A stretch of DNA of 53,321 bases, the filler included, from Diploschistes diacapsis (lineage: Eukaryota), in assembly GCA_023645945.1 (NCBI GenBank). It is 4 parts of 4 records of this genome, joined end to end, with 100 filler letters (N's around TTAATTAATTAA, not from the genome) between each part and the next. Parts side by side here need not be neighbours in the genome. Positions count along the whole stretch, not along the records: positions 26,724 to 39,977 come from JALAIB010000675.1; 3 more parts are not named here. One strand, written 5' to 3'. The notes under the pieces were generated by a model. It made no database searches, was not told the DNA's origin, and worked only from the letters and a program-made list of their open reading frames with translations. Positions within the stretch are counted from its first letter, which is position 1. Each line of letters starts with the position of its first letter. Made by a program: the position numbers and the translations under genes. Below, piece after piece: positions 13,264-50,151 of this stretch.

Positions 13264-13363
13264 NNNNNNNNNNNNNNNNNNNNNNNNNNNNNNNNNNNNN
13301 NNNNNNNTTAATTAATTAANNNNNNNNNNNNNNNNNNNNNNNNNNNNNNNNNNNNNNNNNNNN
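13264..13363. other. Artificial contig spacer
   Basis: N44-TTAATTAATTAA-N44, with stops in all six frames. Confidence 0.98.
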
Positions 13364-26623: not shown

Positions 26624-26723
26624 NNNNNNNNNNNNNNNNNNNNNNNNNNNNNNNNNNNNNNNNNNNNTTAATTAATTAANNNNNNNNNNNNNNNNNNNNN
26701 NNNNNNNNNNNNNNNNNNNNNNN
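26624..26723. other. Artificial contig spacer
   Basis: N44-TTAATTAATTAA-N44. Confidence 0.98.
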
Positions 26724-30627: not shown

Positions 30628-31455
30628 CTACGTAGTTGGGTTGGGATTCATCTAACAGGAACTCAGCACACTCTACCAGAACAAACAACGGGACAGATAT
30701 GATCGTGGGAGCTCCTTACCTTGCGCTTGCCACCAGTCAACGTAACGTTTACGAAGCGACGGGTGTATGTGACACGCTTCTTGGCGCGGCCTTTGAAATG
30801 GGACAATGAGAAAATTGTACTTCTTACATGATTGCAAGATTTACCTTTTGGTGTCTTCTTCTTTTCTTGTGGCTCAACTTTCGGCTTTGACTGGATTAGT
30901 ACTGGGCCCGCTATCATAACGCCAAGGCAGTACCGTTTGGGACTTGACTTTCCCTGCACGCTGAGAATAGAGTCAGCAAGATCAGGAAGATAGGTTATCG
31001 CGCGGGACATCAGTATATAGTGTCGGACCACCCTATGAAGCCTAGTTTCGCTTCGAGGAGTCGCAGATGTGCTTTTTCCGCTTCGAAATATGGAGGTATG
31101 ACTTCAGGCGTGTAGCCCAAGGAGTTTCTTTGCTGCTGAAAGCCCAATATTGATGTCACCTTGCGCTACTTGCCCCAAGAGTTTGATGATTGCGCAGAGG
31201 GATAAGAGACGTGTTGTCAAACCACCCTTGAAATCCCAATACCACGTTAAATAGCCTTAGGAAACCAGTCCCTGCTCCTCGAAAATTTGTTTTCTTCCCA
31301 CACATCGCGACTCCGGAAAACTTGGCCTCCAGTCGATCCGACACTCAATACTGATGCCTCTCACATGAGGATGTCCTTACCGCCAGTGATCCGTGCACCT
31401 TACCTGCAATGAATTAGTATCAATGAGCTAAAGAAGAAATCAAATACGTACCCAT
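30628..31455 (-). CDS. RPS30: 40S ribosomal protein S30 (eS30), 62 aa; exons 31455-31452, 31403-31381, 30960-30934, 30884-30845, 30790-30720, 30651-30628
   Basis: The spliced product is [62 protein letters not shown]. All five introns are GT-AG. Confidence 0.97.
31008..31356 (-). promoter_or_regulatory. Long RNA stem within RPS30 intron 2
   Basis: Three nested complementary segments: 31008-31027/31337-31356, 31037-31049/31317-31329 and 31057-31071/31301-31314. Confidence 0.75.
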
Positions 31456-32003: not shown

Positions 32004-32861
32004 TCATAGATCGAGAACAGGCTGCAGCCTAAGCACCTTTCCCTCCTCCTCCTCCTCCTCCTTATCCCTCCCTTTAGATCCCCCTCTGTTGGCCCATTCC
32101 TCATACCCCTCCTCACCTACTAAGCGATATTCCTCCCATTCCTCCCTCTTGACCCCCTGCCACTCCTGCAACGGGATCCACCCAATCCTCGCCCTGTCCC
32201 CGAACCCACCAAAGAAATACACCTCCTGCACGACTAACCTCCCCCACCAGCTCTCATGTATATCCGTACCAGGCTCCCAGATGCTGGCTTCTGGGTGTGT
32301 GCGGAGGAAACATTCCCGTACACTGTACTCCTTCACTTCTGCATCAGATAGTCTCTCAAGGCTTCCAATTAGCGAGAATCGCGGGAGATTAGCGGGTAGA
32401 TACGCCCACGGATCATCTGTCCTTTGCGTCGCATTGGTGGGCACGTGGTAGCGTAACGAGAGCGTAATATTTGAGCCGGCAGCTGCATTTTTCATCGTCG
32501 TCGCTATCGTCACGCCGAGGATAGTGGGGTCGTAGATATTGGGCGATGGACAAGATGCATAATATTCCATTAGACCGATGGGGGCACCCGCGACGTCTGG
32601 AGGGCGATTCTCGAGCACGGTAAGTTCTTCCGTCGAGGAGTCATTTTGAGCAGAGGGAAAGATGGTCGAGAGGGTCGCGATGTTGGAGATATGGAGGATC
32701 CGGCGGGCTTGGATTGCGGATTCATGTATCGACGGAATGCGTTGGGCGGATTTGGTAGTAGGTGGGGGATTTGAGAAGATTGATTGCGGGCGTGCTAGAG
32801 TTGCGCTACCAAAAAGAGAATGGAGGAAGAAGATAAGTGCAGACGTGAAGGCGAGATGCAT
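32004..32861 (-). CDS. CREG-like / pyridoxamine 5'-phosphate oxidase-related split-barrel protein, secreted
   Basis: Signal peptide MHLAFTSALIFFL. Motifs IATLSTIFP, PIGLMEYYASC, PANLPRFSLIG, CFLRTHPEA, HESWWGRLVVQEVYFFGGFGDRARIGWIP. Single exon. Confidence 0.85.
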   Translation of the reverse strand: MHLAFTSALIFFLHSLFGSATLARPQSIFSNPPPTTKSAQRIPSIHESAIQARRILHISNIATLSTIFPSAQNDSSTEELTVLENRPPDVAGAPIGLMEYYASCPSPNIYDPTILGVTIATTMKNAAAGSNITLSLRYHVPTNATQRTDDPWAYLPANLPRFSLIGSLERLSDAEVKEYSVRECFLRTHPEASIWEPGTDIHESWWGRLVVQEVYFFGGFGDRARIGWIPLQEWQGVKREEWEEYRLVGEEGYEEWANRGGSKGRDKEEEEEEGKVLRLQPVLDL

Positions 32862-33014
32862 GGCAGTTAGACTGAGGCCGTATGGGAAGAAATAAGTGGA
32901 GAAGCGTAGGATGAAAGGGACTGAAATAGACGTTGACTCAGCCAACGGTGCAAAAGGTTCTTGAGGTCATGCGTCTTTGGGTGGCCGGTCACTTCAAACG
33001 AGCCAGAACTCTAC

Positions 33015-33382
33015 CCCCCCGTTTCTCACCAAAATCGATCAACTCTATATTTAAATATCTTCCCAGCAATGTGCCAAATCAAAAATCCAAAACATTATAG
33101 AGAATTTTAGAAGCATTATGCATACAAGAAATCTGTTTCGAATTTTCCCGAATTTTTTGAATACCTAAGATGGGCGTAAACACTTAAATAAATGGTCCCC
33201 ACCAAAAATCGCGGTTACGATGCGGCAACTATACCCTCGGGTTTTCGTTGACGTCTTACGAGCCCCCACAGAAGTTTTAAAAAAATACAAACAAAATAAG
33301 AATAAGTTAAAGCTTTAAAAAGCTGCTGGACTTTTCTTCAAAAATTTAAAATCTTTTTCGCGGAGATATAAGAAATGGGGGG
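33015..33382. mobile_element. Possible MITE, about 370 bp and AT-rich
   Basis: Termini CCCCCCGTTTCT and AGAAATGGGGGG (11/12 inverted match) bound a sharply AT-rich noncoding block. No clear TSD. Confidence 0.4.
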
Positions 33383-33507
33383 AGCCTAACTACTTTTGGC
33401 CTAGTACTGTATCTACGCCCCGTCGGCCTCAGCATATTCTTGTCCTGTGTTGGGATAACAGTGCAGACAACCAACATACTCTATTCATCTCTCATACGGT
33501 ATGATAC

Positions 33508-35385
33508 CTATGTACAATCCCTGGTCTCGGTGGCCGAAGACTTCACCTTTCTCTTCCAGTCCCTCATTGCGATTTCCTCCCCTGCTAGGGCACTGCCGAT
33601 AATACTGGCTTCCACATTCTCCCACCAGCCCTTGATATTGGCCAGCCAAACCCAATAAGCCGCTCCAGCCGCAAGCACGCCTAGACCTGCAGCTGGATAT
33701 GCGTAGTATGGAAATCTACCCTCCGCTCCATATCCGCCCTTTGGTCGGATCCAAGGCAGGACAAGAAGCGTGAAGTTACTGACGAGGAAAAGCAGCACCA
33801 CAACCTTCTTCGCGGGCTTCGGACTACTCCATTGCTCTGTAGGTTCGTTCTGCAAGTAGAGGAGACCACCGGCTACGAAGACTGAGATAACAGAGACGGG
33901 GTACCCTCCGAGTTCCACAAGGAACTCGTAAATCTGTCCTGGCGGCGGCACAATAATCACAGCGACGCTGACGACCCAATGCAGGAATAGCGCTGCCGCG
34001 GGTGTACCATAAGGTCTGCTTGAAGCCCAGAATGAACTGAAGGGCAAAAGGTCGTCCTTGGCAAACTCTTGATTGACCCGAGCTTGCGCAAAGGACGTAG
34101 CGGCTATTGAGCCAAACGCTGAGAGAATAACAAGTAGCGGAAGTAACCTCGAGCCGATAATGTTTCCAAAGACGTTGGTGAAGAAGTGCCCTCCCACAAT
34201 AAGGCCTGAAGACGCAAAGTCTGATCTCTCGACAGCACAGAAGTAAGCGACGTTGACTAGAATGTACGCCGCGGAAACAATTAGGAGCGCGCTCGGCGCT
34301 GCGACTGATAACGTTCGCACTGGCCGACGGACTTCCGATAAGACCTGGTTCGCAGTATTATACCCACGAAAACAGTAAAGAGCCTTGAGCAAGGCCGAAG
34401 CCAGAGCGTACGGCTGGCTCGTAGTCCCAGAGAATATAGAAGAAAAGTTTCGTTTGTAGAAAGCCACCTCTGAGGCTGTCTCACCAATGCGCAGGGGTAT
34501 GCTGGCCAGACCGCTCGCAATGATTGTCGCAATGATGAGCATCTTGATCACGCCTAGGAGGTTGATTAAGCGTAAGCCCAAGGCTGGAGAACGCGCATGG
34601 ATGACGCAAGCAGCGGTGACAGCCAATACCGCTAGACTCCTAACGTTCCACCTGTTTGCTTCAAGCCCCAGCGCGTACATAAAGTACTCCCCGAGCACGA
34701 TACAGTTCGGTGTGCTGAACCCGAGAAGCACAACATAGCTCATGAGTACACAGGGCGCAAGAAACCTCGGTCTCCTGAATATTCGTTCAAGATAGACCTT
34801 TTCACCGCCTGACTTGGGTAAAGCGGTGCCAAGGTCAAGGTATACGGCAAGCCCACAGAACGAGATTACCGCACCGAGGATCCATACCACGAAGGCCATG
34901 CCAACCGAGCCAACATTGAAGAATATCGAAGATGGAACGGAGAATATGCCAACGCCGATTGTTTTCCCGATGATAATATTGATGACGGAGAAAGTTCCTA
35001 GCTTCGCAGTATCGTCATAATGCGTATTTCGGAGTAAGAATGGTGTATTGACGGCTGGGCTTTGTGATAAGAAAGTGGTGTTTTCAGCTGGCGAGCCCAA
35101 CCTGCTGGAATTGGTACTTTCGACTTCGACAGGCGCAGGTGAGTTTTGATGCGCTTTGGTCCGGGACGGCGACGCATGTGTTTTCATTGACGAGAGTGTC
35201 GGCCAAGGGCTAAGAAGAGCCTGCCGATCATCACTTCGATATGCACTCGCGCCAGAGGATGTCGCGCTTCTTGGGGTCCTGGGCGTTCGTCGCGGCGTTA
35301 CTGGCGACTCGGCGTACGAGCAAGCGGGATACCCACGTGGGATAGAGGATGTGATAATGGCGATTCCAAGAAAGTTTTTCGACAT
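33508..35385 (-). CDS. APC-superfamily (LAT/MUP1-like) amino acid or amine permease, 625 aa
   Basis: Intact ORF with many hydrophobic segments. Motifs IIGKTIGVGIFSVPS, YLDLGTALPKSGGEKVYLE, GYNTANQVLSEV and ARVNQEFAKDDLLPFS. Confidence 0.9.
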   Translation of the reverse strand: MSKNFLGIAIITSSIPRGYPACSYAESPVTPRRTPRTPRSATSSGASAYRSDDRQALLSPWPTLSSMKTHASPSRTKAHQNSPAPVEVESTNSSRLGSPAENTTFLSQSPAVNTPFLLRNTHYDDTAKLGTFSVINIIIGKTIGVGIFSVPSSIFFNVGSVGMAFVVWILGAVISFCGLAVYLDLGTALPKSGGEKVYLERIFRRPRFLAPCVLMSYVVLLGFSTPNCIVLGEYFMYALGLEANRWNVRSLAVLAVTAACVIHARSPALGLRLINLLGVIKMLIIATIIASGLASIPLRIGETASEVAFYKRNFSSIFSGTTSQPYALASALLKALYCFRGYNTANQVLSEVRRPVRTLSVAAPSALLIVSAAYILVNVAYFCAVERSDFASSGLIVGGHFFTNVFGNIIGSRLLPLLVILSAFGSIAATSFAQARVNQEFAKDDLLPFSSFWASSRPYGTPAAALFLHWVVSVAVIIVPPPGQIYEFLVELGGYPVSVISVFVAGGLLYLQNEPTEQWSSPKPAKKVVVLLFLVSNFTLLVLPWIRPKGGYGAEGRFPYYAYPAAGLGVLAAGAAYWVWLANIKGWWENVEASIIGSALAGEEIAMRDWKRKVKSSATETRDCT

Positions 35386-36206
35386 GGCGGATGTTTGCGA
35401 TTTGAGAATGAAATTACACGAAGTTACTCACATATGCGTCAGAGGCATTGAAAGTCCCGAGGACAAGAAGACTGAAAGGCTTGAACATTCACCAAAGATA
35501 CTGATGCATACTACGAACTTGGAAGGAAGGTAAACAAAGAAAACTGCTTAGAGGCAGAACATTGTTCTGGCCGACAAAAGGAAGGGGAGAGACTGAACAA
35601 CAGAACAATGAAAGAACAAAGATTCTATCCTTACTAGATTTTCAGAAGCTCTAGAGGGATTCAGTGGTCCTCGGATCACCCGAAAACCCATCGAACGAAG
35701 TTGTATGTCGAAGTATGAGGTGGATATTAGGAATTAAATGGACGAGGAAGAATCTTGGCACGGTCACAAGCATCTTACTTTATGCTGGCAGACTTTGTTT
35801 CAGCCAAAGGCCCAAACGTTTCGTGTTTCCTGCTACACGCGGAGTTTTTCTATAGTGCCTTAAGCAACACTCGCGATAACATAGAGCACAACTTTGATAC
35901 TAACTGATAGCCCAGAGTGAATAACACCTGTTGTACCAAGAAACTCATGTTGCAAAATCCCCGGGGGTTTTCTTTCCCCCCTCCCTCGACCACAAAGACA
36001 TATCGGTATAGAATACCATACATCAGCAGATCTGTGCGTGCTGCTGGTAACGCTCCCTTTCCTCGTCATTTTAACCAAGCTGCAACACCACGTCACCAAT
36101 CATGCAACACAGGACAGGCTGCGCAATTACCAAGGTATCGTTGGCAGTCTTCGCTCCCAGCAGTCGCTAAACACCGCGCCAAAGAGTCAAGACCCGAATT
36201 TGTTCC

Positions 36207-37905
36207 TTAGACCATCTCGATGTACCGTTTCACCTCCCTAGGAGCATTCAGTATACTTGAAAGAAGAGATACGAAGAACATGCACGTACCAATCAGTAAC
36301 TGCCTCGTCCCACAACCTTGCCTCATGTTCTCTGGTCCCACCAAAGTGTTCCACGAAATCATCTCCAAAGACCTCCCTTGCCACACTGTCTCTTCGCATG
36401 AATGTTGCTGTAGCTTCTTTGAGGGACTTCGCTAGTCGCTTGCCCCTGTCTGAAGTTCCACCAACATCTTCGCCCTTTCCCAGAGGTGGCAGACTGACTT
36501 CCATCTTCTTCTCTACGCCTCGCCAGCCAGTTGCTAGAATCGCTGCTAAAACAAAGAACGGATTGGCATCCGCGCCTGGGACTCTAATCTCGAAACGAGT
36601 TGCTTTCGGAGAACCGGTTGGCGGCGCAATCAGGCGGATCGACGCTGCACGATGTTCCAAGCCCCAGGAGACCGTCACGGGGGCCCAGAAGTTTTCTACT
36701 AGCCGTTTATAGGAATTAACGGTAGGCGCCACAAGTGGCATGATATCCGGTAAGCCATCCAGTAGTCCTGCGAGAAATTGGCGACCGATATCAGAAACGT
36801 ATGCCAAATCTTGAAACGGAGGCTTGTCGTCCTTTGAGCCTCGATAGAATAGGTTATTGCCCGACTCGTCGACAAGGGAGACATGCATATGACCAGAGTT
36901 GCCTGGCAGGCCTTCTTTGGGCTTCGCCATAAAGCAGGGTGTTATGCCGTGTTTTGAACTCGTCGCTTTGACGACATATCTGGGGAAGCTGATCAGCAAA
37001 GCAAAATGGAGTTGAAATTACTTACTTGAACATTGCGGCCTTATCACCCATCTCTTTGATCTCTCCATATTCCAGAGCCTGCAGCCTCAATTAGTATTTA
37101 ACCAAGTGTCTCAGACCACTCGGGCGCATACCGCTTCAAAAACGCCGGGTCCACTTTCTGTGTGCCAGCTTTCAATTCCACACCTGAAACTTGAGCAAGC
37201 GTCGAAAACGCTATAGTAGTAATCTTGATTCAGCACCGGTCTGGTCAGACTGTACCCCGTCATGCCCTCTGTCAAGGACGGCAGGTTTTGAGCTGGGTTG
37301 TCTTGGAGAAACCTTGCAGGCGATGGTTCACCCTTTCGATTTGTTTGTGTGTCCGAACTGGCTGGCACTCTGAAGTGATAGAATTCGTATTCAGCTGCAT
37401 AGCATTGTGTCAGTCGAAAGGTTTTCTTGAGCTTGCGGTTTGCTAACAACCCCGACTACAGACCTCCTGCTAAAGCCCTATACCCGGACCTTTCCAACCT
37501 CTCAGCAGCTGTCCTCAGCAAGCTCCTGGGGCATGTGCATATGGGCCGTTGGGTATCCGGGTCGAGGAAGTTAACCAAGAAGAAAGGTACATTGTCCTCC
37601 CACGGTATCCTCCTGAACGTGCTCAAGTCCGGTACGGCGATTATGTCTCTATAGCCATTCTCCTTATTACTAATCTTTAGCTCCCGTGTATAGAACTGAT
37701 CATGCATATCCCAGCCAAAGATGACGGAGCAGAAGCCGAATCCCTCCTCAGCAATGGATAGGAACTTTTCCTTAGCCATGAGCTTGCCTCGTAATATGCC
37801 GTCCACATCAATGCCGGCGACCTTGACTCTGGTATCATGTTGGAGCAGAGTTGACAGCGAATCGACTGTGAGGTCACCGAGCGATGTCGCAGACGCTGAA
37901 GCCAT
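36207..37905 (-). CDS. Glutamine synthetase-like ligase (GSI-like, gamma-glutamyl-amine ligase type); exons 37905-37464, 37394-37132, 37078-37026, 36979-36290, 36237-36207
   Basis: Motifs DVDGILRGK, AEYEF, HTESGPGVFE, FMAKP..G.PGNSGHMHVSL, NSYKRLV, WGLEHR.ASIR and RFEIRVPGADANP. Four GT-AG introns give one frame ending WEVKRYIEMV*. Confidence 0.92.
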
Positions 37906-38391
37906 CCTTCGTCGACGATAGAGGGAGCCGCGAAAGAGCAGTGTCTGGAAAGCTGAGAGCAGATGGCCAGGGGGGCTCCTGAAGACTCGTTAAGTTGCAG
38001 TATGCAAGCATATGAAGAATGGCGCGGAAAATATAGAGAAATTAAAGAAAGCACAATAGACGAGCCGGTGGGGAACAAGGAGCTAGGATTAGCTTGGAGC
38101 TGGAGCCCAGGTATAGTGCCCAGTTAGAGCTGGAGCTTGGAGTTATAGGTATTCTACCATACTAGCATGCAGCCATGCACATCTCCCTCCACTCCACTGG
38201 GGCTTCTCACCATCATCGTCGTCCATTCATTCATTACTAAGCTGTCCAGCGTCTCCTCAGATACCCGATCGCGGCCCGCTATTAATCCGAGCGATGTTAG
38301 TCGAAATGCACGTGCAGGGCACGGGCTGGAATGATTGGTTCGCTACATAGACGCTTACATTGAAGTACATATATAGTTAGGGTTTCTTGTG

Positions 38392-38566
38392 TTATCTGGC
38401 TTTCGTGCCTGCTCCATCGTTGAGTACAAGAGAAACCAGGGATTGGAAAGCGCTTGACAAGGCAAACATCATTATCATGTTGAACAACACTCCTTGCAGA
38501 GGTTTGTCCGATCCAGACGGTGAAATCCCGGAGCAATCGATAAGCAATCGATAAGCCCTAGCGGGG
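38392..38566. promoter_or_regulatory. Cluster of HGATAR (AreA/NIT2-type) sites and one SYGGRG (CreA-type) site in the bidirectional promoter
   Basis: TTATCT at 38392, TTATCA at 38472, tandem CGATAAG at 38538 and 38549, GCGGGG at 38561. Confidence 0.45.
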
Positions 38567-38705
38567 TTGCTTGCGTTAAGTCGGTTCGCCTGCCACCGCC
38601 TCCCACCATAACTTCCCACGCAGACCTTTAAAGTCGCGACACAAGGGACAATTCACCCCATCCCCCTACTGTTAGTATCGAACAAACACCGGGCCAGACT
38701 ACAGA

Positions 38706-39914
38706 ATGGGATCTTTGAGCCATTCGGGACGCCTTGAAGGCAAGAATGCCATTATCACTGGAGCAGCTGGGTGCGTGAGAAACAAAAAAGCTTACACCGG
38801 CAGGTCTTACCTGGCAAGAGCACACAAAGAATCCTACTCCAATGACCAGCGGTGTCAACGAGTGGAATCGATGTCGGTCTCTCGAGACCTTCAACAGCTC
38901 ACTCAAGTTCGCGTGCAAGACCTCTTGCTAACATTGCCGCCGTTCAACACAGTGGCATCGGCTTCGAGACAACCATCCTCTTCCTCCGCGAAGGCGCTTC
39001 CGTGCTCATGGCCGACATCTCCGAACCTGCCCTTGCAAAAGCGAAGACCAAGCTCGGTGAAATCCTTCCTTCGCACCCCGGCCGCGTTGAGACGGCCCAT
39101 GTTGACGTGTCCAACGAGTCTTCCGTAAGCGACATGGTCACGCGACTCGACTCCTGGGGCGGTGTAGACGTCATTTTCAACAACGCCGGGATCATGCACA
39201 GTCAGGACGCGGATGCCATCGACACGCCCGAGAAGATCTGGGACCTGACCCACAACATCAACGTCAAGGGCGTGTGGTTTGGGTGCAAACACGCGGTGCT
39301 GAGCATGCGGAAGCATGGCAAGAAAAACGCCAGCGTGATCAATACCGCCAGCGTTGTTGCACTGGTGGGTTCGGCGACGCCGCAACTGGCATACACGGCG
39401 AGCAAGGGCGCCGTGCTTGCCATGACGCGGGAGCTGGCCATCGTGCATGCTAGAGAAGGGTTTAGGTTCAACTCGCTCTGCCCGGCGCCCCTGAAGTAGG
39501 ATTCTTTTCTTGCCCATGGTGACTCGCACACTTCCCTTCCCTTTTCCCTCGCCCATGCCGACGGCCCTCTGCGATTCAGATTGAACGTGACCGCTGACCG
39601 TGCAAACAGCACGCCGCTCCTCCAAGATTGGTTGGGCGACGACCAAGCCAAGCGCCACCGCCGTGAGATTCACTTTCCGACCGGCCGCTTCGGCGAGGCC
39701 ATCGAACTGGCCCAGGCCGCTCTTTTCTTAGCCAGCGACGAGAGCAGCTTCGTGAACGCGACCGATTTCGTTGTTGACGGTGGCATGACAAAGGTGAGCC
39801 TTGATCCGGGCCCCCATGATGTGTATATGCACCTCGAGATGGCTAATGTTTGAGCAGGCGTACGTCACGCCCGAAGGCCCTGCTCTACCCCCGCCCACAA
39901 ACTTTGGCACATGA
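38706..39914 (+). CDS. Short-chain dehydrogenase/reductase; exons 38706-38770, 38953-39495, 39610-39793, 39858-39914
   Basis: Motifs TGAAGGIG, NNAG, NTAS, YTASK (YxxxK) and FLASDESSFVNATDFVVDGG...AYVTP. Three GT-AG introns. Confidence 0.93.
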
Positions 39915-39977: not shown

Positions 39978-40077
39978 NNNNNNNNNNNNNNNNNNNNNNN
40001 NNNNNNNNNNNNNNNNNNNNNTTAATTAATTAANNNNNNNNNNNNNNNNNNNNNNNNNNNNNNNNNNNNNNNNNNNN
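39978..40077. other. Artificial contig spacer
   Basis: N44-TTAATTAATTAA-N44. Confidence 0.98.
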
Positions 40078-41553: not shown

Positions 41554-42216
41554 TTAATCTTTTTGGTTACCTGCTCTTGCAATAAACCATTCAAATGCAA
41601 CATCCTCGGCTTCTTCGGTAACTTCGCTTCTTAACACCTCGAAGCCTTTCCCTTGGACCAATCGCAAGTTTCCCTCTTGTCCGAAAGAGCTCCAGTACGC
41701 AGCCTTCATACCCAGCCACCCTTCTATGGTCAGGCCAGCAGGAAGAGCCATGACCACCAGATTCACGAGCAGCATGCCCCCAGGTTTGATCCAGCGTCGC
41801 ATTCTTTCGAAGATGTGTTCCTGACCTTTGGCATCCAGATGGATGATTGAGTAAAGCGCCACAATAACATCGAATTTGCTGTCATGGAAAACCAAATCTC
41901 CCATACTTCCTTCCATGAACGAGACATTAGTTACCTCCGCCAAGTGACGTCGTGCTAACGATATTTGCGTTGAGGAGATATCATTTGCAACTACGTCGTG
42001 GCATGTTTCGGCAAGCATTCTCGTCACAGGCAAACCAGCACCGCACCCAAGCTCCAGTACTGAGGTGCAAGAAGGATCCGGCAAGAGGCTGAGCATGTTT
42101 TGGACATACTTCTCGCGTGCTGAGGGTCGAGAAAGAGTCCATTGGAGATAGCGGATCGCTTGAGCATCATAGCCTTCTTTTGCAAGAGCTTCGGGCGATT
42201 TTTTCGCGTACTCCAT
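41554..42216 (-). CDS. Class I SAM-dependent methyltransferase
   Basis: Motifs VLELGCGAG, VVANDIS, FDVIVALYSIIHL and WIKPGGMLLVN. First ATG at 42216, single exon. Confidence 0.9.
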   Translation of the reverse strand: MEYAKKSPEALAKEGYDAQAIRYLQWTLSRPSAREKYVQNMLSLLPDPSCTSVLELGCGAGLPVTRMLAETCHDVVANDISSTQISLARRHLAEVTNVSFMEGSMGDLVFHDSKFDVIVALYSIIHLDAKGQEHIFERMRRWIKPGGMLLVNLVVMALPAGLTIEGWLGMKAAYWSSFGQEGNLRLVQGKGFEVLRSEVTEEAEDVAFEWFIARAGNQKD

Positions 42217-43388
42217 TCTGGTCACGAACGCTAGCCTCAAAATACGGATTCCGAAGAGAATGAAATAGCTTATATGAAGTAGTAACCTTGACTGGTCTCG
42301 GTCAAGTCAAAGGACGATTGGAGCATGACGGATGGCAAGTTATACTAACGATGCTATCACTGTTTGGCTCGTGCAGTCATTCTGGGGTCGAGATAAAAGT
42401 AACGGTGAAGGGCTCCACCTTGAACTTCTCCAACCATCGCGCCCTAATTGGTTCGCTTCTGTATCCAACTGTAGCGTTTCAAAGCTAGTGATTAAGGGTA
42501 CTACTAACAGGAAACCGATAAGTACCAAGTCATCTTCTACAAGTGTAAATATTTCTCGTTTTCCTTACCCCTACCGTTGGTTCCCCCGAGCTGTCCAACC
42601 GACATCAAACGTTCAACCCCAGAACAAAGGTTAGCGCTGATTAATTGTGTAAAGGGGATTTCACCAAATATAAGGACACATTGAGCTTTTGTTGCCGTGG
42701 CGCCGCACTAAGGAGCGCTAATCTCTGTTCTTGAGGTCGATTAGTGAATTTAGTGTAGAGTAAAGGTGCTCTCTTTATCTCTCAAGCATTTTTATTCTTT
42801 TTCTTGCCTCAGACTCCGACAGCTTATGCGCCAGGCTTCGCCGGCGCCAGAGCCTAAGCCCCATTGGGCTAGCCCTTCTTGTCAAGCCCCATTCGGTCTA
42901 GCGGCGAAAAGTAAAGATTTTTTGGATTAAGATCGAGTCCCGTTTGATCGAGTCCCGTTTGATCGACACGAAAATTGAAGGTTTATTTACGTCCAACATC
43001 TTTTGAATAAGATGTAGTGCATTTAATCAACAAACAGCACCGTATTGTCCATGTACTGGCATACATTGCTAAAATACTAAAATACTATGGGAACCTGACA
43101 GGCTGCTGATGGGCATGTTATCTCACCCGCTGATCCGCGAGCCGCCAAAGGCTAACTCAAAAGGCCTTAGTCTTAAGCCGGCAACTAGCGTGCGTGCCAG
43201 GTTCATATTCCTAGTTCTGAGGATATCTACGAAGTAAGTAGCTAGGATTGCCCGAGGGCTCTATCTCGGAGTCTCTTTACCCAAAGCCGGGCTCTCCCGG
43301 TGTTCCTGCTTAGTCCTTTCATTCTTCCTATACTATAGTCTCTTCTCTCGTCGCAAAGACATTCATTCCTGAGTATCATCTCCCCACC

Positions 43389-44665
43389 ATGTCCTCTTCA
43401 GCCATCATCGCCACTGAAGCAGTCTTCACGCTTGTCTCTGCTGGATCCATTGTCCTCCGTTTCCAAGCGAGGAAGTTGAGCTCCGAAAGGCTGGCAGCCG
43501 ACGATTGGCTTATGGTTATTGCGTGGGTATGTCACGATCATATAGACCTTAGCTATGTACTTAACGACAGCCTAGTTCTTTGCCACTGCTCTGGCAATCA
43601 CCAACATCATAGGTGTCGCCCTTGGTCATATTGGAATGCCTTACGATTCAATGACGGATGACGATACCATCGCGTACCTCAAGGTGGGCAAGACCATGCT
43701 GCTTCATACAAGCAAGTGGACTCTCATACTGAACAAGCAGCGCAGTTCAATTTCACATATCAGTTCTTCTATATCTTTGCAGTAGCTTTCGTCAAGCTTT
43801 CTGTCCTTTACTTCTACAGGCGTGTCTTTACCATCGGCAAAACACCAATTACTATCTGGACTCTTGTGGCTCTTACCATTGGCTGGCTGATATCGTTTTT
43901 CTTTGCCACGCTCTTCCAAGCCTGGCCTATATGGTGTAACTGGATAGTCTGCCCTAACTCAATGAATTATCCGGTTATGTACGTGTTATCGAGCGTAACC
44001 GACATCCTCTTAGATATCAGCATCCTTTCGTTGCCTACGTTTTTCATCTGGCCTCTGCAGATGAGCCTCTCGAAGAAGGTTGGTATCATTGGCATCTTCG
44101 GTCTCGGGTTCTTGTAAGGTCTCCAAATTTCAATCTTCTCATTCCCAATATCTATCTTGCTTCCTCCGCACCTGTCCTACTCTTCCTCGCCTTGACAAGA
44201 CTGACCAGGTCTTCCAGCTGCATTGTCGCCTCGATTGCCCGCCTTGTGTACACCATATATTTCAACAACGCCAACCTCGTCAACGATGTTGCCTCAATCT
44301 TCGACGAATATGCGAACAACGTGTTAATATGGTCCGGCATCGAGGCATCTTGCTCAACAACCTGCGCAAACCTCGCATGCTACGGTCCACTATATTTCCG
44401 AACAAGACGGAATAGCGTGGGTGAAAGGACGCGCTACAAACCGAGCGTGTTCTCCCGGCTCTGCGGCTTTTCAAAGAATAAAGATTCATCCGGCCGGTCG
44501 GAGGTTAGTAATGAGCCACGGTCCGACAAAAGTGTCCCTCTGGGACGTAACGTCTCAGTGGAAGAAGTTGCTTCGGTGGAGTTCAGCAACATGGGTGGAG
44601 TAGCAAATCCAAGATCGTTCTTACGTGAGGACTCCCGTGAATGGGATCGAGACGACCATCTATAG
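43389..44665 (+). CDS. PTH11-like integral membrane protein (fungal rhodopsin domain, no CFEM); exons 43389-43526, 43576-43683, 43746-44113, 44218-44665
   Basis: Motifs LRFQAR, ADDWLM, VKLSVLYFYRRVF, TDILLDI.ILSLP, LQMS..KK, SIARL and WSGIE...CANL. Three GT-AG introns. Confidence 0.9.
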
Positions 44666-45312
44666 CTGCTCATTTTAGGGATTCAGAGCTGTTTGTTGTA
44701 TGTAACAAGCGACTGGTGTAAAGAGCAGGATCGACTCGGTTTTATCACCGGCTCGTCGCACTGTGAAGGGTGGTTCTCGCCTTGAACAAAGCCGTCGCTG
44801 GAACTTTGGCAGCAGGAACTCCTCCTCTGTCATTGATCCTCCAATAAATGGACTAAAGAATTTTATGCGCATTGTATACTTTGCCTAAAATTTGAAGACT
44901 GGGGAATTTTCTCCATAAACACTCCACGACTTAGACCCGACAGAGGTTATCAAACCGAAGGACTTGTGGGACGAGACGAGACTAATAACCTTGAAGAACC
45001 ATGAAATTGAAAGACAGTACAAGACTGAGTAAAAGATGTGAGGCTAGAAAGCAGGTCTAGAACAAGAAATTTGGGCCGTATACACGACACTTGACAGGCA
45101 TGCTGGATGACCTCACGCATCCAGGGATTGAAGGCTCCCTGCGGGGTTTGTGAAGATGAATGCGCTAATCGCAAGCAAGGTGGAGACGGAGGAAAATGAG
45201 ATATAGGTCAGTCCTCCTTCTGCAAGCTCTCTTCTTCCCTTCTAGTAATTCTAACCTCTCTCCGGAAATTGCACATTCCAGGTATCATTGAGAGGTCCAG
45301 GCCGAAACTCCA

Positions 45313-47070
45313 ATGCCCTCTATCATAAGCTCTAGACATGCCCTGATCGGAGCGGGCTTGTTAGCAAGTCATGGGTGGATTTGTCAAGCACACGCTACTC
45401 CCACGGTGCAAGTTATCAATGGCACCTACCAGGGCTTGTATTCCGCGGAGTACGACCAAGACTTCTTCCTTGGAATGCCCTTCGCTCAACCACCTATTGG
45501 AAGCCTTAGGTATCAAGTTCCCCAGCCACTGAACTCTGCTTGGACGGACACTCACACTGCGACTGAGTACTCTCCAGAGTGTATCGGGTACGGCAGCGAT
45601 CAATGGGTGCTGGGCAATCATGTTTCAGAAGATTGCCTAAGCATCAACGTCATCCGTCCCTCGGGGGTCCGAGATGGATCGAACGTGCCGGTTGCTGTAT
45701 GGATTTACGGTGGTGGGTTTACCGAAGGGGGCAATTCTGACCCGCGGTACAACCTATCATTCATTGTTGAGCAGTCTGTCAACATGGGCCAGCCTATGAT
45801 CGGAGTGAGTCTGAACTACCGGTTGGCGGAATGGGGCTTCCTTTTCAGTCAAGAAATCCTGAGTGCGGGCGTAGCCAATCTCGGACTCAGGGATCAAAGA
45901 CTAGCGCTCCATTGGATTCAAGAGAATATCGGCGCCTTCGGGGGCGACAAGAGTAAGGTGACGATCTGGGGCGAAAGCGCGGGTTCAATCAGCGTTGCAG
46001 TGCAGTTGGTTGCGTACGGAGGCCGAGACGACAGTCTCTTCCGCGCTGGAATTCAAGAAAGCGGCGGAGCAGCACTGGGAACTCGAATCCCTACACTTGC
46101 ATCATCTCAGCCTATATATGATGCTGTGGTCGAAGCAACGAACTGCACGGGATCTACAGACACTCTTGCTTGTCTGCGCACAATCCCCACGACAACGCTG
46201 ACCAACATTTTTAACAGCTCCGTAACCCAGGGTTTCAGCTCTTCCCCGGTAATAGACAACGATTTTCTGCAGTCATCCGGGACCACAGCGCTCCGCAGAG
46301 GGCATTTCGTAAAGGTGCCGCTGCTTGTCGGAGCAAATCACGACGAGGGTACATCGTTTGGTACAAGAGGCATCAACACGACACAAGAGTTTCTAGAAGA
46401 CATAAGGTCGGAAGGCCTAGACAATGCCACAGCTCTCACACTCGCCGCACTATATCCAGATATACCCGAGATCGGCATTCCGGGCACTCTGCATGGACGA
46501 CCGCCTCCGGCCGATGCTTCTCTTGGGTACATGTGGAAGCGAGCAGCAGCGTATGGTGGAGATCTTGCCATGCATGCTACGCGCCGGATGACCACACAGA
46601 TATGGGCGGAGTACAACCAAACCGCGTATAGCTATCATTTCAACGTTGAGCCTAACGGTCCTGGCTACCTCATTGGCGCCACTCACTTCCAAGAGGTTGC
46701 GTTTGTTTTTGATAATATCAACGGGATAGGATACAACAACTCGGTCGCTGTTGACCCTTTCGAGAATGAGCCGACCACCCTTCCGCAGTTGGCGGACATC
46801 ATGTCGAGGATGTGGATCAGTTTCATCACCCAGCTTAATCCAAATGAGAACGGAGGTGGGTCGAAACATTGCTCTGTCCTCTGGACGACTGCTGACTGAT
46901 TGACTGGAGCAGCTACGAAAGTAACCTGGCCTTCGTATTCTCTTGCAAATCCTCAAAACATAGTCTTCGATGTGAACGCAACAGATTTAGCTTATATTGA
47001 GCCGGACGTCTACCGCGCAGCGGGGATTCAGTACATTTCAGATCGGTTGGACTCGGTATATGGGAGGTAG
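45313..47070 (+). CDS. Secreted type-B carboxylesterase/lipase; exons 45313-46855 and 46913-47070
   Basis: Motifs FLGMPFAQPP, SEDCL, WIYGGGF, NYRL, GESAG (nucleophile), DEG and ATHFQE. The intron restores a C-terminus ending YGR*. Confidence 0.95.
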
Positions 47071-48407
47071 CCGATCGAGTGACAAGGCGAACAAGGGATC
47101 AAGTCTCCACTAGTAGAGGCTGCTTACGGTACGTATATTTGGGAACTCGCAACTAGAGTTTGGAAAATTGGGCTTCAACGGTCGGTTGCAGAAACCGTTT
47201 GGAAAATATATAATGCTAATGTACCTCAAGTCAGCATAATTGTATATATGCGAGACCCCCTTGCCTGGATTATGGTTCGCGTATGGCATATGCAGTCGTT
47301 GCTAGAAGACTAGATGTTTGTTGTAGCATCGCTGGCAGGGAAGCGGCCCTTTATGTAGTACGACGCTGGCTCTGAGTCGGACCTGGAACAGCATCGCTAG
47401 CCCCTTGATTAGTCCGGAGGGCCCTAGCAACAGCGAAGACGACAGCCTTCGTTTCATTTTTGTTAGCTATTCTTTCGAGAATACTACTCCGTTACAGATG
47501 CAAGCCTCTGCGAGTACCCGACGTCCGGCTGAAGATTTTTTGTAAAGCGCGAATATCTTATTGAATAGGTAACGCACAAGAAGATTCCACTAGATGCATC
47601 ATATATTCGGCGAGAGCGGTGGAGGTCCTGCGAGTCAAACGGAGCGACATCAAAGAGCTACAATTCATTGTGTAGGAATTTGAGGAAATGGTCGAGTTGT
47701 TGCCGAACAGGGCTGGTGGTTAAAGCATCCGTCGTGGGAAATAGGGGCGATCTAACATTTCAACCCATGCGGGAGGTTGTAGATGGCTTTGGCATGGAGG
47801 AGTGGAAAGAACTCGAAGTAGTAGCGGCATCCATAAAGAAATACTATGTAATTCAGCATTTCGGGCAAGGTAATTGATGATAGGGGTTTTTAGTACTTCG
47901 GATTTAGGAAATTCCGGGTATTCAACTAACAGTGACAACAAGCCTATTCTTAGGCGTCAGCAACAAAGCCACATATAATTAATTAATGGAAGAACTTGCG
48001 TTTCACCAATACCTCGTCCAGGTGCTTTGTGGCGCCCACTGGCGAGGCAGCAATTCAGACTCGAGTGATCGTGCTGAAGCTCCTGGAGGTTCTCAAGCTC
48101 AATAGCTATTCAATTCATGCTAGTATCGATACGGAGCCCATTGTGTTGGCGCCAGACGCGTGGGTTTTTCTGCTGGGAAACCGATTGGGAGCCTAGGAAT
48201 TTCCCTTTACCGCGCCTAGCATCTCAACACATACTACCAAGGATATAACGAGCTACTGTCCAGTCGGGTGACCTTTCTAATTGGGGCTATATACATACCA
48301 TGCATGCAAGGGGCATATTGGACGCTTTCGTGTTCATAAGAGGTCAGACCATCTCAGGAACTGTGAATAATGATTTATTGATTACTCCTGAGGATCGCGC
48401 TTCTTTC

Positions 48408-50151
48408 CTATTGCTGGATAAAGAACCCTATAGCGCTCAAGTAACTGCATCGCTCTCTCTGATCCCACGGGACTGTCTCCATTCTGCTCGCATTGGTTTG
48501 AAGCAGAATCCTGTTTTGGTCTTGGTTATTCCAATGCACCCATCGCGGGCTCCCTGGAGCACGGTACGTATTCGGATTGAAACTTCGGATGAAGCTTGTC
48601 CAATAGCCCTGCATAACCGGAACAATCGCTGCGTTTGTTGTGTTGTAGCTGGCAGGTGGCATCCCAGTAACGTACTGTGGGCCCCAGATAGCATTGACCT
48701 CGACCGTATGAGTAACTCCGTATCCTTCCATGTCCAAAGTTGGGTCATGAACGTCGTAGTGATAGTTCCAATTAAGTTCTGTTGAATACTGATAGTACGA
48801 GGAGCTGATGAAGATTCCAGGGCAGTTGTACCGCATCTCTCCGTATGCGGACGAAACAGTTGGCCAAAAAGAGTTCGCGTTTGGATAGACCTGGCCTTCT
48901 GGGTATATCATATCTATCCTAGCAAGCTGGGCCCGTGTGAGGTCCGGAAACTGGGCCAGCAAGAAAGTGTTCATATCAGCATAGGAGGAGGTATTCTTGT
49001 TCGTGAAGATCGTTCCTTCGTTCGTAGCGTCCCTGTAGAAGGTCAACGATTACCGGATGAGTCTGTAGGCATATTAATCATGAGTATTTACCCAAAGATG
49101 ACGGGTACTTTAATGAATCGCCCTTGTGCGAAAAGATTATACGTAAAGTCAGGAGTAAAGTCTCCATCAACCACGTTCGAATACATGTACAACGGTGCAC
49201 CCACTCCCCCCGGGTAAGCAATATTGATATTTGTGCCTTGGAGGACCTCGATGGGAAGATTCCTCAAGCACAACAAGCTGTCCGTGGTAGTGTTGCAGCC
49301 AGTCCGCTGGACAAGGGCGTCGTACTGATACTGGCTTTGCGAAACCGTGAGTTGCGGACCGAAAGATTGTGACTCTGCAGCGGCGGCATGAAACAGCCCA
49401 TCGTCGCGACCACCATAAGCCGAAAGGTGAAGATCGACCGAGGCGCCTCCAGCTGAATCACCGCCGATGGTGACATGATCTGGGTCCCCACCGAACTAGG
49501 GAAGGTCAGACGACATACCGTACTTTCCGAGGTTTATACCTTGTAAATATAGCTCTGTACCCACTCAAATACCTTGCGTTGGTCCAATAACCCGGCATTG
49601 AGATTACCATTGTCTGCCACTTGCTGACTTGCCAAGAACCCGTACGGTCCCACACGATAGTTGAATGTCACAATCACTATATTCATTTGGGAGGCTAGAA
49701 TCAATCCAGTGCCGTTGAAGTTTGGGTTCGCATTCAAGTTGAAGCCTCCACCTTGAATGAAGACGAAGACTGGAAGCCGTGTGCCCGCTGTCGCATTGCT
49801 AGGGGCGTATACGTCCAAGAAGAGACAGTCCTCGGAAGTGGTGTTTGTCAGGTTTATCTGGCTCGTCGCAAGACAGATAGGCCCATGCTGCATACTTTAG
49901 AAGGTCCATGGATGCACCGTGAAGGTCAATACCTGGTTTGCAACCTGAACAGTGTTGTTGACGAGGGGATCCCCTGGAGCCCGAAAACGGAGGTCACCCA
50001 GCGGAGGTGCCGCAAATCGAATTCCTAGCCATTGGGTAATACCGGCCGATATTGCGGTTCCTAGATATTGCGTGTAGCCGACATCGACTAAAGGATCAAC
50101 AGCAACGGCGCAAGAAACGATGGAAAGCAAGACAGCGATTTTTAAAAGCAT
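48408..50151 (-). CDS. Secreted type-B carboxylesterase/lipase; exons 50151-49933, 49887-49540, 49495-49092, 49032-48408
   Basis: Signal peptide, then motifs WLGIRFAAPP, SEDCLFL, QGGGF, NYRVG, GDSAG, TNEG and VTHTVE. Three GT-AG introns keep the frame. Confidence 0.95.

What the first reader, a model, noticed from the sequence alone, without database searches (positions are those of the whole stretch)
33508..39914. Fungal gamma-glutamylation cluster: GS-like ligase, divergent SDR and APC permease
Seen: a GSI-like ligase with WAP where true glutamine synthetases have the EAP flap, and without the FDGSS ammonium-site motif. It is head-to-head (800 bp) with an SDR and followed by a permease. Known: bacterial GS-like enzymes (PuuA, Streptomyces GlnA4) gamma-glutamylate amines, and glnA4 clusters with an SDR and an aldehyde dehydrogenase for ethanolamine use. 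From memory, this SDR's motifs (YTASKG.VLAM.REL, LCP.P.NTPLLQ, SSFVNATDF.VDGG...AYVTP) match that SDR type. Inference: an intron-containing eukaryotic version of the pathway for ethanolamine or other amines, not biochemically described in fungi to my knowledge. An ALDH or gamma-glutamyl hydrolase may lie beyond the contig end.
Basis: partly seen in the sequence, partly recalled or inferred. Interest (0 to 1): 0.75.

Follow-up and report, generated by a model that had tools for sequence, protein, structure and literature searches.

The report
Fungal glutamyl-ligase and dehydrogenase gene pair
This fungus, like many other filamentous ascomycetes, keeps a glutamine-synthetase-like gene back to back with a small dehydrogenase gene; together they likely tag ethanolamine or a similar amino alcohol with glutamate and oxidise it to use its nitrogen, a route I found described only in bacteria, while the transporter gene next door is likely a chance neighbour.

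Summary
The genes are real: a 492-aa five-exon GS-like ligase (catalytic residues intact, Trp at the GS flap Glu, no FDGSS) head-to-head, 800 bp, with a 282-aa SDR. The pair is conserved: SDR within 3.5 kb in 18 of 24 informative fungal loci, and consecutive ids in 14 of 17 annotated assemblies, while other neighbours change. The permease is methionine-permease-like and absent from all 80 related loci, so it is not part of the module. The ligase is not a GlnA4 orthologue (AU p=0.0002). It nests in a bacterial clade whose operons carry an ethanolamine permease (33 of 80), Fe-ADH, hydrolase and ALDH. The SDR comes from GlnA4-type operons. Both ancestries point to ethanolamine. The shared promoters are about 3.8-fold enriched in GATAAG, which fits nitrogen regulation. 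The genome has a separate canonical GSII. Best reading (0.68): a mosaic fungal gamma-glutamylation route for ethanolamine or a close amino alcohol. The substrate is inferred, nothing is assayed, and no ALDH or hydrolase is tied to the pair. I did not find it in print (10 searches). This scan noted the pair in four other genomes. New variant; interest 0.58.

The parts
36207..37905 (-). GS-like gamma-glutamyl-amine ligase (predicted), 492 aa, five exons: 37464-37905, 37132-37394, 37026-37078, 36290-36979, 36207-36237
   Evidence: Spliced model open end to end; PF00120; metal/Glu/ATP residues E149, E151, E227, E234, G279, H283, H285, R345, R363, R368, E383, R385 kept, flap W351; these are near-invariant in 113 fungal homologues
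38706..39914 (+). Classical SDR, 282 aa, four exons: 38706-38770, 38953-39495, 39610-39793, 39858-39914; predicted NAD+-dependent gamma-glutamyl-amino-alcohol dehydrogenase
   Evidence: Model equals P0271; best NCBIfam PRK06057, 270 bits against cut-off 404; TGAAGGIG, MADIS (Asp after beta-2), NNAG, YTASK; nests among GlnA4-operon SDRs
37906..38705 (.). Shared divergent promoter, 800 bp, with five GATA-type hexamers, among them a tandem pair CGATAAG at 38538 and 38549
   Evidence: sites; sequence; GATAAG 1.61 per kb in 28 head-to-head intergenic regions against 0.42 per kb in non-coding control DNA
33508..35385 (-). APC/LAT-family permease, 625 aa, methionine-permease-like; a neighbour, judged not part of the module
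   Evidence: TIGR00911 best, 279 bits against cut-off 702; Atlas top clusters 'high-affinity methionine permease' (a lead only); no tblastn match in 80 related fungal loci
39978..40077 (.). Artificial join (N44-TTAATTAATTAA-N44) marking the end of contig C4002

Best explanation
The ligase and the SDR are a conserved back-to-back gene pair that likely performs the first two steps of a nitrogen-regulated breakdown route for ethanolamine or a very similar small amino alcohol. Step 1 (inferred): the ligase uses ATP to join glutamate to the amine, giving gamma-glutamyl-ethanolamide. Step 2 (inferred): the NAD+-type SDR oxidises its alcohol to the aldehyde. Steps 3-4 (inferred from the bacterial routes, enzymes not identified here): an unlinked ALDH gives gamma-glutamyl-glycine and an unlinked hydrolase or cyclotransferase frees glycine and recycles glutamate. 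Shown: gene structures, intact catalytic residues, loss of the GS ammonium-site signature, conserved linkage, GATAAG enrichment, and the two different bacterial ancestries. The pair is a mosaic: the ligase comes from the bacterial clade that works with an Fe-ADH, the SDR from the GlnA4-type operons.
For: Linkage: of 70 non-redundant fungal-type loci, 24 have at least 3.5 kb upstream; 18 of 24 carry the SDR orthologue within 3.5 kb (14 head-to-head, 4 tandem), 1 at 7 kb, 5 none; downstream neighbours differ by lineage; 14 of 17 annotated assemblies with both ids visible have consecutive ids. Ligase context: among its 80 closest bacterial loci, 33 have an ethanolamine permease (2 of 2 scanned pass the TIGR00908 cut-off), 54 an Fe-ADH, 40 a class I GATase/Peptidase_C26 hydrolase, 40 an ALDH, 0 an SDR. 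SDR context: of 20 close bacterial SDR loci, 18 have a GS-like ligase, 16 an ALDH, 8 an ethanolamine-permease-like gene (one of two scanned passes the cut-off); Thermomicrobium has ligase-SDR-eat in a row. S. coelicolor GlnA4 is specific for ethanolamine in vitro and needed for growth on it (PMC6529630, passages); Fe-ADH and SDR fill the same proposed step in C. salexigens and S. coelicolor (PMC9397018, Table 2). GATAAG 56 observed against 14.5 expected in shared promoters; three control hexamers not enriched. A canonical GSII exists elsewhere in the genome.
Against: No assay, expression data or mutant. The ligase is outside the GlnA4 clade (AU p=0.00016), and I found no characterised member of its own clade; the nearest annotated relative is an IpuC-labelled isopropylamine ligase at 35%. 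The SDR step is only predicted even in Streptomyces. No ethanolamine permease over the cut-off (best 65 bits against 382) and no PuuD-type hydrolase was found in this fragmented genome. 5 of 24 informative fungal loci lack the SDR, and one annotated assembly has the genes about 320 ids apart. 21 of the 80 bacterial ligase loci show none of the four marker genes, and 3 lie beside 2-aminoethylphosphonate genes. The window's own ligase has Thr193 where 109 of 113 homologues have Phe, next to the presumed amine pocket. GATA sites can also be read by other GATA factors.
Confidence: 0.68

Rival explanations
1. Same chemistry, other substrate: the pair handles a different hydroxylated amine (1-amino-2-propanol, alaninol, serinol, an amino sugar alcohol or a 2-aminoethylphosphonate-related amine), or is broad in range.
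For: The ligase clade is sister to an IpuC-annotated enzyme rather than GlnA4; 3 of 80 bacterial loci lie beside 2-AEP genes and a Rhizobium plasmid locus does too; 11 Bacteroidota loci have a different context; GS-like amine ligases can be broad (PMC11335346, title and passages); the window's enzyme has pocket-region changes F193T, T71F, H202L.
Against: An ethanolamine permease is the commonest transporter beside both the ligase's and the SDR's closest bacterial relatives.
Confidence: 0.17
2. The pair makes or modifies a gamma-glutamylated signal or protective metabolite (FluG-like role), not a nitrogen-scavenging intermediate.
For: No ALDH or hydrolase is consistently linked in fungi, so the route looks incomplete; FluG is a fungal precedent for a GS-like gamma-glutamyl ligase in development (PMC6478659, passages).
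Against: No amidohydrolase domain; the bacterial relatives of both genes sit in catabolic operons; GATAAG enrichment fits nitrogen catabolism; no biosynthetic cluster genes recur beside the pair.
Confidence: 0.06
3. The ligase is a gamma-glutamyl-amine ligase, but the SDR is only a co-regulated neighbour held by a bidirectional promoter.
For: Their closest bacterial relatives come from different operon types, and none of the 80 bacterial ligase loci has an SDR; 5 of 24 fungal loci lack it.
Against: The SDR's closest bacterial relatives sit next to another GS-like ligase in 18 of 20 loci; linkage survives inversion to tandem orientation (5 of 70 non-redundant loci within 3.5 kb).
Confidence: 0.05
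4. It is a second, prokaryote-type glutamine synthetase, as the databases label it.
For: All Glu/ATP/metal residues are intact; best NCBIfam model is TIGR00653 GlnA for homologue P0152 (226 bits, cut-off 429); a Tyr in the GYS motif may still stand for GlnA Y179 (alignment ambiguous).
Against: Flap Glu replaced by Trp in 113 of 113 fungal homologues; D50 loop absent; the genome has a GSII; the F. fujikuroi gln1 (GSII) deletion needs glutamine (PMC3829961, passages), though I did not show that this species carries the ligase.
Confidence: 0.04

Closest known systems
Streptomyces coelicolor ethanolamine cluster SCO1610-SCO1615 (GlnA4 = SCO1613, SDR SCO1611, ALDH SCO1612, hydrolase SCO1615; PMC6529630)
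   Same: GS-like ligase without the flap Glu, linked to an SDR of the same subfamily (47% to the SDR of a locus with this layout, L236; motifs nearly identical)
   Different: The fungal ligase is outside the GlnA4 clade (about 32% identity; AU p=0.00016); Trp rather than Phe in the flap; no linked ALDH, hydrolase or regulator; introns; divergent promoter. S. coelicolor's own sequences were not on hand; L236 and L163 stand in by layout.
Bacterial operons eat - GS-like ligase - Fe-ADH - GATase - ALDH (Bacteroidota, Bdellovibrionota, Burkholderiales, Myxococcota); functionally like the predicted Chromohalobacter salexigens route (PMC9397018, Table 2)
   Same: Closest ligase relatives (40-45% identity), same FCxVxFGWD and WAP motifs, one starred clade with the fungal enzymes (99/97)
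   Different: These use an iron ADH, not an SDR (0 of 80 loci), and keep permease, hydrolase and ALDH in the operon; I found no experiment on this clade
IpuC, gamma-glutamylisopropylamide synthetase (annotation on Paenarthrobacter plasmid pTC2)
   Same: 35% identity; GWD motif and Trp flap; sister to the clade that holds the fungal enzymes
   Different: Works with a P450 system on isopropylamine; its neighbouring SDR is of another subfamily
E. coli PuuA and Aspergillus FluG
   Same: GS-fold gamma-glutamyl ligases without the ammonium-site acids; FluG is the known fungal case
   Different: PuuA 26% identical and far in the tree, uses a flavin oxidase; FluG has an N-terminal amidohydrolase domain that this protein lacks (FluG sequence not compared here)

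Membership tests
True glutamine synthetase (GSI) | Metal, glutamate and ATP ligands (E129, E131, E212, E220, H269, H271, R321, R339, R344, E357, R359) | tested here: met
   All aligned to E. coli GlnA
True glutamine synthetase (GSI) | E327 flap glutamate | tested here: not met
   W351; Trp in 113 of 113 fungal homologues
True glutamine synthetase (GSI) | D50 ammonium-site loop (FDGSS) | tested here: not met
   Replaced by FCSVIFGWD; no Asp at the aligned column, though the loop aligns poorly
True glutamine synthetase (GSI) | Y179 of the ammonium pocket | tested here: inconclusive
   MAFFT puts T193 there; Y195 two residues on could be the true equivalent; no structure model was obtained
True glutamine synthetase (GSI) | TIGR00653 score over cut-off | tested here: not met
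   Full-length homologue P0152: 226 bits against 429
GlnA4 (gamma-glutamylethanolamide synthetase) orthologue | Falls in the GlnA4 clade | tested here: not met
   Separate starred clades; one clade of fungal plus GlnA4-type rows rejected, p-AU 0.00016, LG+G4; GlnA4 represented by layout-defined stand-ins
GlnA4 (gamma-glutamylethanolamide synthetase) orthologue | Glutamylates ethanolamine in vitro | not testable with these tools
   Needs enzyme assay
PuuA (NF045547) | Score over cut-off and clade | tested here: not met
   P0152: 166 bits against 650; 26% identity
GS-like gamma-glutamyl organic amine ligases (GoaS, PMC11335346) | GS fold with intact catalytic core and lost ammonium-site acids | tested here: met
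GS-like gamma-glutamyl organic amine ligases (GoaS, PMC11335346) | Acts on an organic amine and not on ammonium | not testable with these tools
   Needs enzyme assay
glnA4-operon SDR (SCO1611 / PRK06057 type) | NF004713 score over cut-off | tested here: not met
   Best family by 66 bits but 270 against 404; Thermomicrobium (356) and Meiothermus (320) ligase-linked SDRs also fall short
glnA4-operon SDR (SCO1611 / PRK06057 type) | Groups with SDRs that neighbour GlnA4-type ligases and shares their motifs | tested here: met
   Nested among them, 93/89 for the enclosing fork, exact sister unresolved; motifs; neighbours
Ethanolamine permease Eat (TIGR00908) | Window permease scores on TIGR00908 | tested here: not met
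   TIGR00908 not among its 6 NCBIfam matches; best is TIGR00911; methionine-permease clusters in the Atlas
Complete gamma-glutamylation cluster | Linked ALDH, hydrolase and permease | tested here: not met
   In 80 fungal loci: window-type permease 0, GATase 0, ALDH 5; beyond this contig's end unknown

The most novel reading that the evidence does not exclude
Most filamentous ascomycetes carry an undescribed, GATA/nitrogen-controlled route that catabolises ethanolamine by gamma-glutamylation. It was assembled in fungi from two different bacterial operon types: an ancient ligase, present from chytrids to Pezizomycotina with a tree that follows fungal phylogeny, and a GlnA4-type SDR that took the place of the iron ADH. 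The last steps would be carried by unlinked, still unassigned enzymes.
Probability: 0.5. Interest if true: 0.72.

Novelty: new variant of a known kind. Interest (0 to 1): 0.58.

Why it matters
Hundreds of fungal proteins labelled 'glutamine synthetase' would be misannotated; one paper states that ascomycetes have only GSII (PMC3829961) and another uses AFUA_6G03530 as the GLUL counterpart (PMC3601126; its orthology to this gene is not shown here). Ethanolamine from membrane turnover is a common nitrogen source in soil, plants, animal hosts and lichen partners. A two-gene, divergently transcribed module gives a direct knockout and assay target in Aspergillus or Neurospora, and would carry a pathway known from bacteria into eukaryotes. 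It is also a clear case of a eukaryotic gene pair built from two separate bacterial sources. The chemistry itself is known, which caps the surprise.

Tried and rejected
Permease as part of the module: rejected. Ligase as GlnA4 or PuuA orthologue: rejected. Genes after position 40077 (methyltransferase, fungal rhodopsin-domain protein, carboxylesterases) as neighbours: rejected, other contig. PuuD-type hydrolase in the own genome: the two PF07722 matches read as GMP synthase and aminodeoxychorismate synthase (names from my reading of the sequences); exon-wise search in a 4361-contig assembly does not show absence. Eat-type permease in the own genome: 7 weak matches, none over cut-off. ALDH as third member: an ALDH lies beside the pair in 5 loci, all nearest to Dothideomycetes; its orthologue here is on a 2.4-kb contig with no overlap to the end of C4002; unresolved. 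Dienelactone-hydrolase-family gene near the ligase in 7 loci; its matches here lie on other contigs; unresolved. SreA-type ATCWGATAA as source of the GATA signal: 1 site in 28 regions, rejected. No structure model was obtained, so the amine pocket was not mapped in three dimensions. Sequencing runs: no RNA holder listed. Rows dropped: one mis-framed Rhizobium row and 31 long-branch or redundant rows between the quick tree and the careful tree (to which 5 GlnA4-type rows were added); one mis-extracted SDR (L231) sits among the outgroups and is ignored. Two papers that might bear on the claims were not held (a Neurospora nitrogen-regulon paper and the IpuC paper); supplements were not read for any paper, and transcriptome tables there could already show this pair's regulation.
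Full report
Observation. The ligase gene (minus strand, 37905..36207) has five exons and four GT-AG introns and gives an open 492-aa protein. The SDR gene (plus strand, 38706..39914) has four exons and gives 282 aa, identical to database protein P0271, which its source labels as from the lichen fungus Diploschistes diacapsis. The start codons are 800 bp apart. The permease is one 625-aa ORF, 35385..33508. The window is four contigs of steadily falling length (13263, 13260, 13254, 13244 bp) joined by the same linker; the locus is on C4002 and the SDR ends 63 bp before its end. What follows in the window is therefore probably unrelated DNA, and what lies beyond the SDR in the genome is unknown.

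The ligase. Aligned with E. coli GlnA and PuuA (fetched), it keeps every metal, glutamate and ATP ligand, but has W351 at the flap Glu327 and FCSVIFGWD in place of the FDGSS loop. The Y179 position is ambiguous. These features are family-wide: W351 in 113 of 113 full-length fungal homologues of under 530 aa (of 120 listed), the catalytic residues in 111-113 of 113. PMC6529630 (passages) and PMC6478659 (passages) name the loss of these acids as the mark of gamma-glutamyl ligases that do not make glutamine. The genome encodes a canonical GSII elsewhere, in two pieces on two contigs, both best matching NF041605 GlnII; a search with the ligase's largest exon finds only this locus. The family is large: 1109 proteins of 455 aa or more at E<=1e-30 among 4230 candidates, the best 120 at 75-84% identity and, where named, all Pezizomycotina. 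More distant members come from Trichomonascus, Wickerhamiella, Funneliformis, Dimargaris, Ramicandelaber and chytrids.

Where the ligase comes from. In a 49-row tree (LG+G4; 32 rows of the first 76-row tree dropped, 5 added) 16 fungal rows and one unnamed row form a clade (100/99) whose branching roughly follows fungal phylogeny, which suggests an old acquisition. It sits with Bacteroidota, Bdellovibrionota, Burkholderiales and related bacterial ligases (99/97), inside a larger GWD-motif clade that is sister to an IpuC-annotated enzyme. GlnA4-type ligases form their own clade (99/99), and forcing them together with the fungal rows is rejected (p-AU 0.00016). S. coelicolor GlnA4 itself was not on hand; loci with its operon layout (L236, L163) stand in. 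Identities agree: 42-44% to the near bacterial clade, 35% to IpuC, 30-32% to GlnA4-type, 26% to PuuA. The top solved structures for the largest exon are 11zs and 5dm3; that 5dm3 is the Chromohalobacter enzyme is my recall.

What the bacterial relatives sit with. Both permeases scanned pass the TIGR00908 cut-off. The usual order is eat-ligase-FeADH-GATase-ALDH. Exceptions: 8 Mucilaginibacter loci carry GSII and a gamma-glutamyl cyclotransferase gene instead, and 3 betaproteobacterial loci lie beside 2-aminoethylphosphonate genes.

The SDR. Best family PRK06057, 270 bits against a cut-off of 404. It has the NAD-type Asp after beta-2 (MADIS; cofactor rule from established SDR knowledge) and the NNAG and YTASK motifs. 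Close relatives were found in 63 of 251 genomes sampled from the phylum of G002 (an actinomycete locus, L101) and 1 of 401 from that of G001 (Polaromonas, L126). In 20 such loci read more widely (18 of the best-scoring, plus one large-genome locus and the single hit), 18 have a GS-like ligase, 16 an ALDH and 8 an eat-like permease; the two without a ligase end at contig edges right after the permease. Plasmid records show ligase-SDR-eat in Thermomicrobium, permease-aminotransferase-ligase-SDR-ALDH in Allomeiothermus, and permease-ligase-hydrolase-ALDH-SDR in Streptomyces viridifaciens. The fungal SDRs form one clade (100/100) nested among these (exact sister unresolved). So the two fungal genes come from two different bacterial operon types, and each type is independently tied to the ethanolamine permease. 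PMC9397018 (Table 2) lists an Fe-ADH in C. salexigens and the SDR SCO1611 in S. coelicolor for the same proposed step, oxidation of gamma-glutamyl-ethanolamide.

Linkage in fungi. A metagenome scan with a fungal ligase alignment gave 80 loci (best 80 of 273), 70 after merging near-identical ones. Of the 24 with at least 3.5 kb upstream, 18 have the SDR orthologue within 3.5 kb (14 head-to-head, 4 tandem), one at 7 kb and five none; over all 70, 33 have it. By best match these cover Dothideomycetes, Chaetothyriales, Leotiomycetes, Lecanoromycetes and Sordariomycetes, weakest in the last (1 of 3 with long flanks). The gene on the other side changes with lineage: mitochondrial ribosomal protein, ALDH, citrate synthase family, dienelactone hydrolase family, SET protein. 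In annotated assemblies where both ids were visible, 14 of 17 are consecutive, one is three apart, one about 320 apart on the same contig and one uninformative; three of the pairs were picked because they shared a contig, which biases that count upward. A. fumigatus has consecutive tags AFUA_6G03520 (SDR) and AFUA_6G03530 ('glutamine synthetase') in two papers (passages); I recalled the tags and did not confirm orthology by sequence. The window's permease has no match in any of the 80 loci, of which 27 non-redundant ones have at least 3 kb on that side; it is LAT-family and nearest to methionine permease clusters.

Regulation. In 28 head-to-head intergenic regions (27 loci and the window) GATAAG occurs 56 times, 1.61 per kb, against 0.42 per kb in 131 kb of ORF-masked control DNA from the same loci (expected 14.5; Poisson P about 1e-16, optimistic because the regions are related); three control hexamers are not enriched, and GATA variants head the list of all 4096 hexamers. 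26 of 28 regions hold at least one site and 18 of 28 have two HGATAR sites within 30 bp. The window has two CGATAAG in tandem at 38538 and 38549. The iron-regulator motif ATCWGATAA occurs once. The control is general non-coding DNA, not promoters of matched genes, and the enrichment is not seen upstream of the ligase in the tandem loci (1 site in 6 x 1.2 kb). That such sites bind AreA/NIT2 is established knowledge, recalled; binding here is inferred.

Mechanism. Most likely: amine + glutamate + ATP gives the gamma-glutamyl amide (ligase); NAD+ oxidation of its alcohol to the aldehyde (SDR); then unlinked ALDH and hydrolase give glycine and glutamate. Glutamylation protects the amino-aldehyde, as proposed for the bacterial routes. 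My odds: ligase for an organic amine rather than ammonium about 0.92; the pair works in one route about 0.88; substrate ethanolamine or an immediate analogue about 0.68. The first two steps rest on sequence and on gene context; GlnA4's specificity for ethanolamine (PMC6529630) is for a different clade, and the SDR step is untested even there. The last two steps have no gene assigned.

Against. No assay or expression data; no linked hydrolase, ALDH or Eat in fungi; five informative loci lack the SDR; some bacterial relatives have other contexts; and this copy differs from 90%-conserved columns at 13 places, among them F193T and T71F near the presumed amine pocket, so its range may differ from the family's.

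Novelty. Ten full-text searches listed no paper describing this pair or a fungal gamma-glutamylation route for ethanolamine; the library lacks most subscription papers and I read no supplements. Papers seen: PMC6529630, PMC9397018, PMC6478659, PMC3829961, PMC11335346, PMC8394153, PMC3706326, PMC3601126, PMC3289889, all as term-matched passages only; the rest as search listings. PMC3829961 states that ascomycetes harbour only GSII-type proteins. This scan reached the same reading on four other genomes; those are AI notes and not independent support, and I read them after my own tests of linkage, context and trees. Verdict: a real, widespread, apparently undescribed eukaryotic variant of a known bacterial pathway type; two genes, not three; interest 0.58.

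Noticed in passing
window 13264-13363, 26624-26723, 39978-40077: Three identical N44-TTAATTAATTAA-N44 linkers join contigs of 13263, 13260, 13254 and 13244 bp; the window looks like a length-sorted concatenation, so gene order across them is likely meaningless.
   Followed up: yes
window ligase residues 71, 193, 202, 223 (exons 1-2): This copy has F71, T193, L202 and S223 where over 90% of 113 homologues have T, F, H and G; T71F with F193T may be a compensating swap around the amine pocket.
   Followed up: partly
L114, L115, L120, L124, L128, L137, L138, L153 (Mucilaginibacter): The same ligase clade sits with a GSII gene, a gamma-glutamyl cyclotransferase (PF06094), an unassigned 345-aa protein and a HAD-IIA phosphatase; the cyclotransferase is a candidate deglutamylase and a lead for the missing fungal step.
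   Followed up: partly
L097, L125, L139; also L165 (Rhizobium plasmid): Ligase operons adjoin 2-aminoethylphosphonate transport or catabolism genes.
   Followed up: partly
L034, L035, L053, L054, L059: An ALDH with an N-terminal hydrophobic segment (yeast Msc7-like, label recalled) lies beside the pair, downstream of the ligase in three loci and beyond the SDR in two; orthologue in G000 on C1353.
   Followed up: partly
L005, L032, L044, L060, L061, L068, L076; gene models P0165, P0193: A dienelactone-hydrolase-family gene recurs near the ligase and is fused to it in two Teloschistales gene models (probably merged predictions).
   Followed up: partly
P0003, P0018, P0037: Database proteins with six, three and three tandem GS domains (4424, 2757 and 1356 aa); source unknown.
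   Followed up: no
P0044 (tree): A Gregarina protein falls inside the betaproteobacterial branch of this ligase clade; separate transfer or contamination.
   Followed up: no
window 32007-32966 (-) and about 30700-30860 (-): A CREG-like secreted protein (PF13883) and an exon that reads like ribosomal protein S30 (recalled) follow the permease, after an AT-rich patch near 33000-33400.
   Followed up: no
window 41554-50226: Next contig: SAM methyltransferase, fungal rhodopsin-domain protein and two carboxylesterase genes, with AT-rich ends.
   Followed up: no
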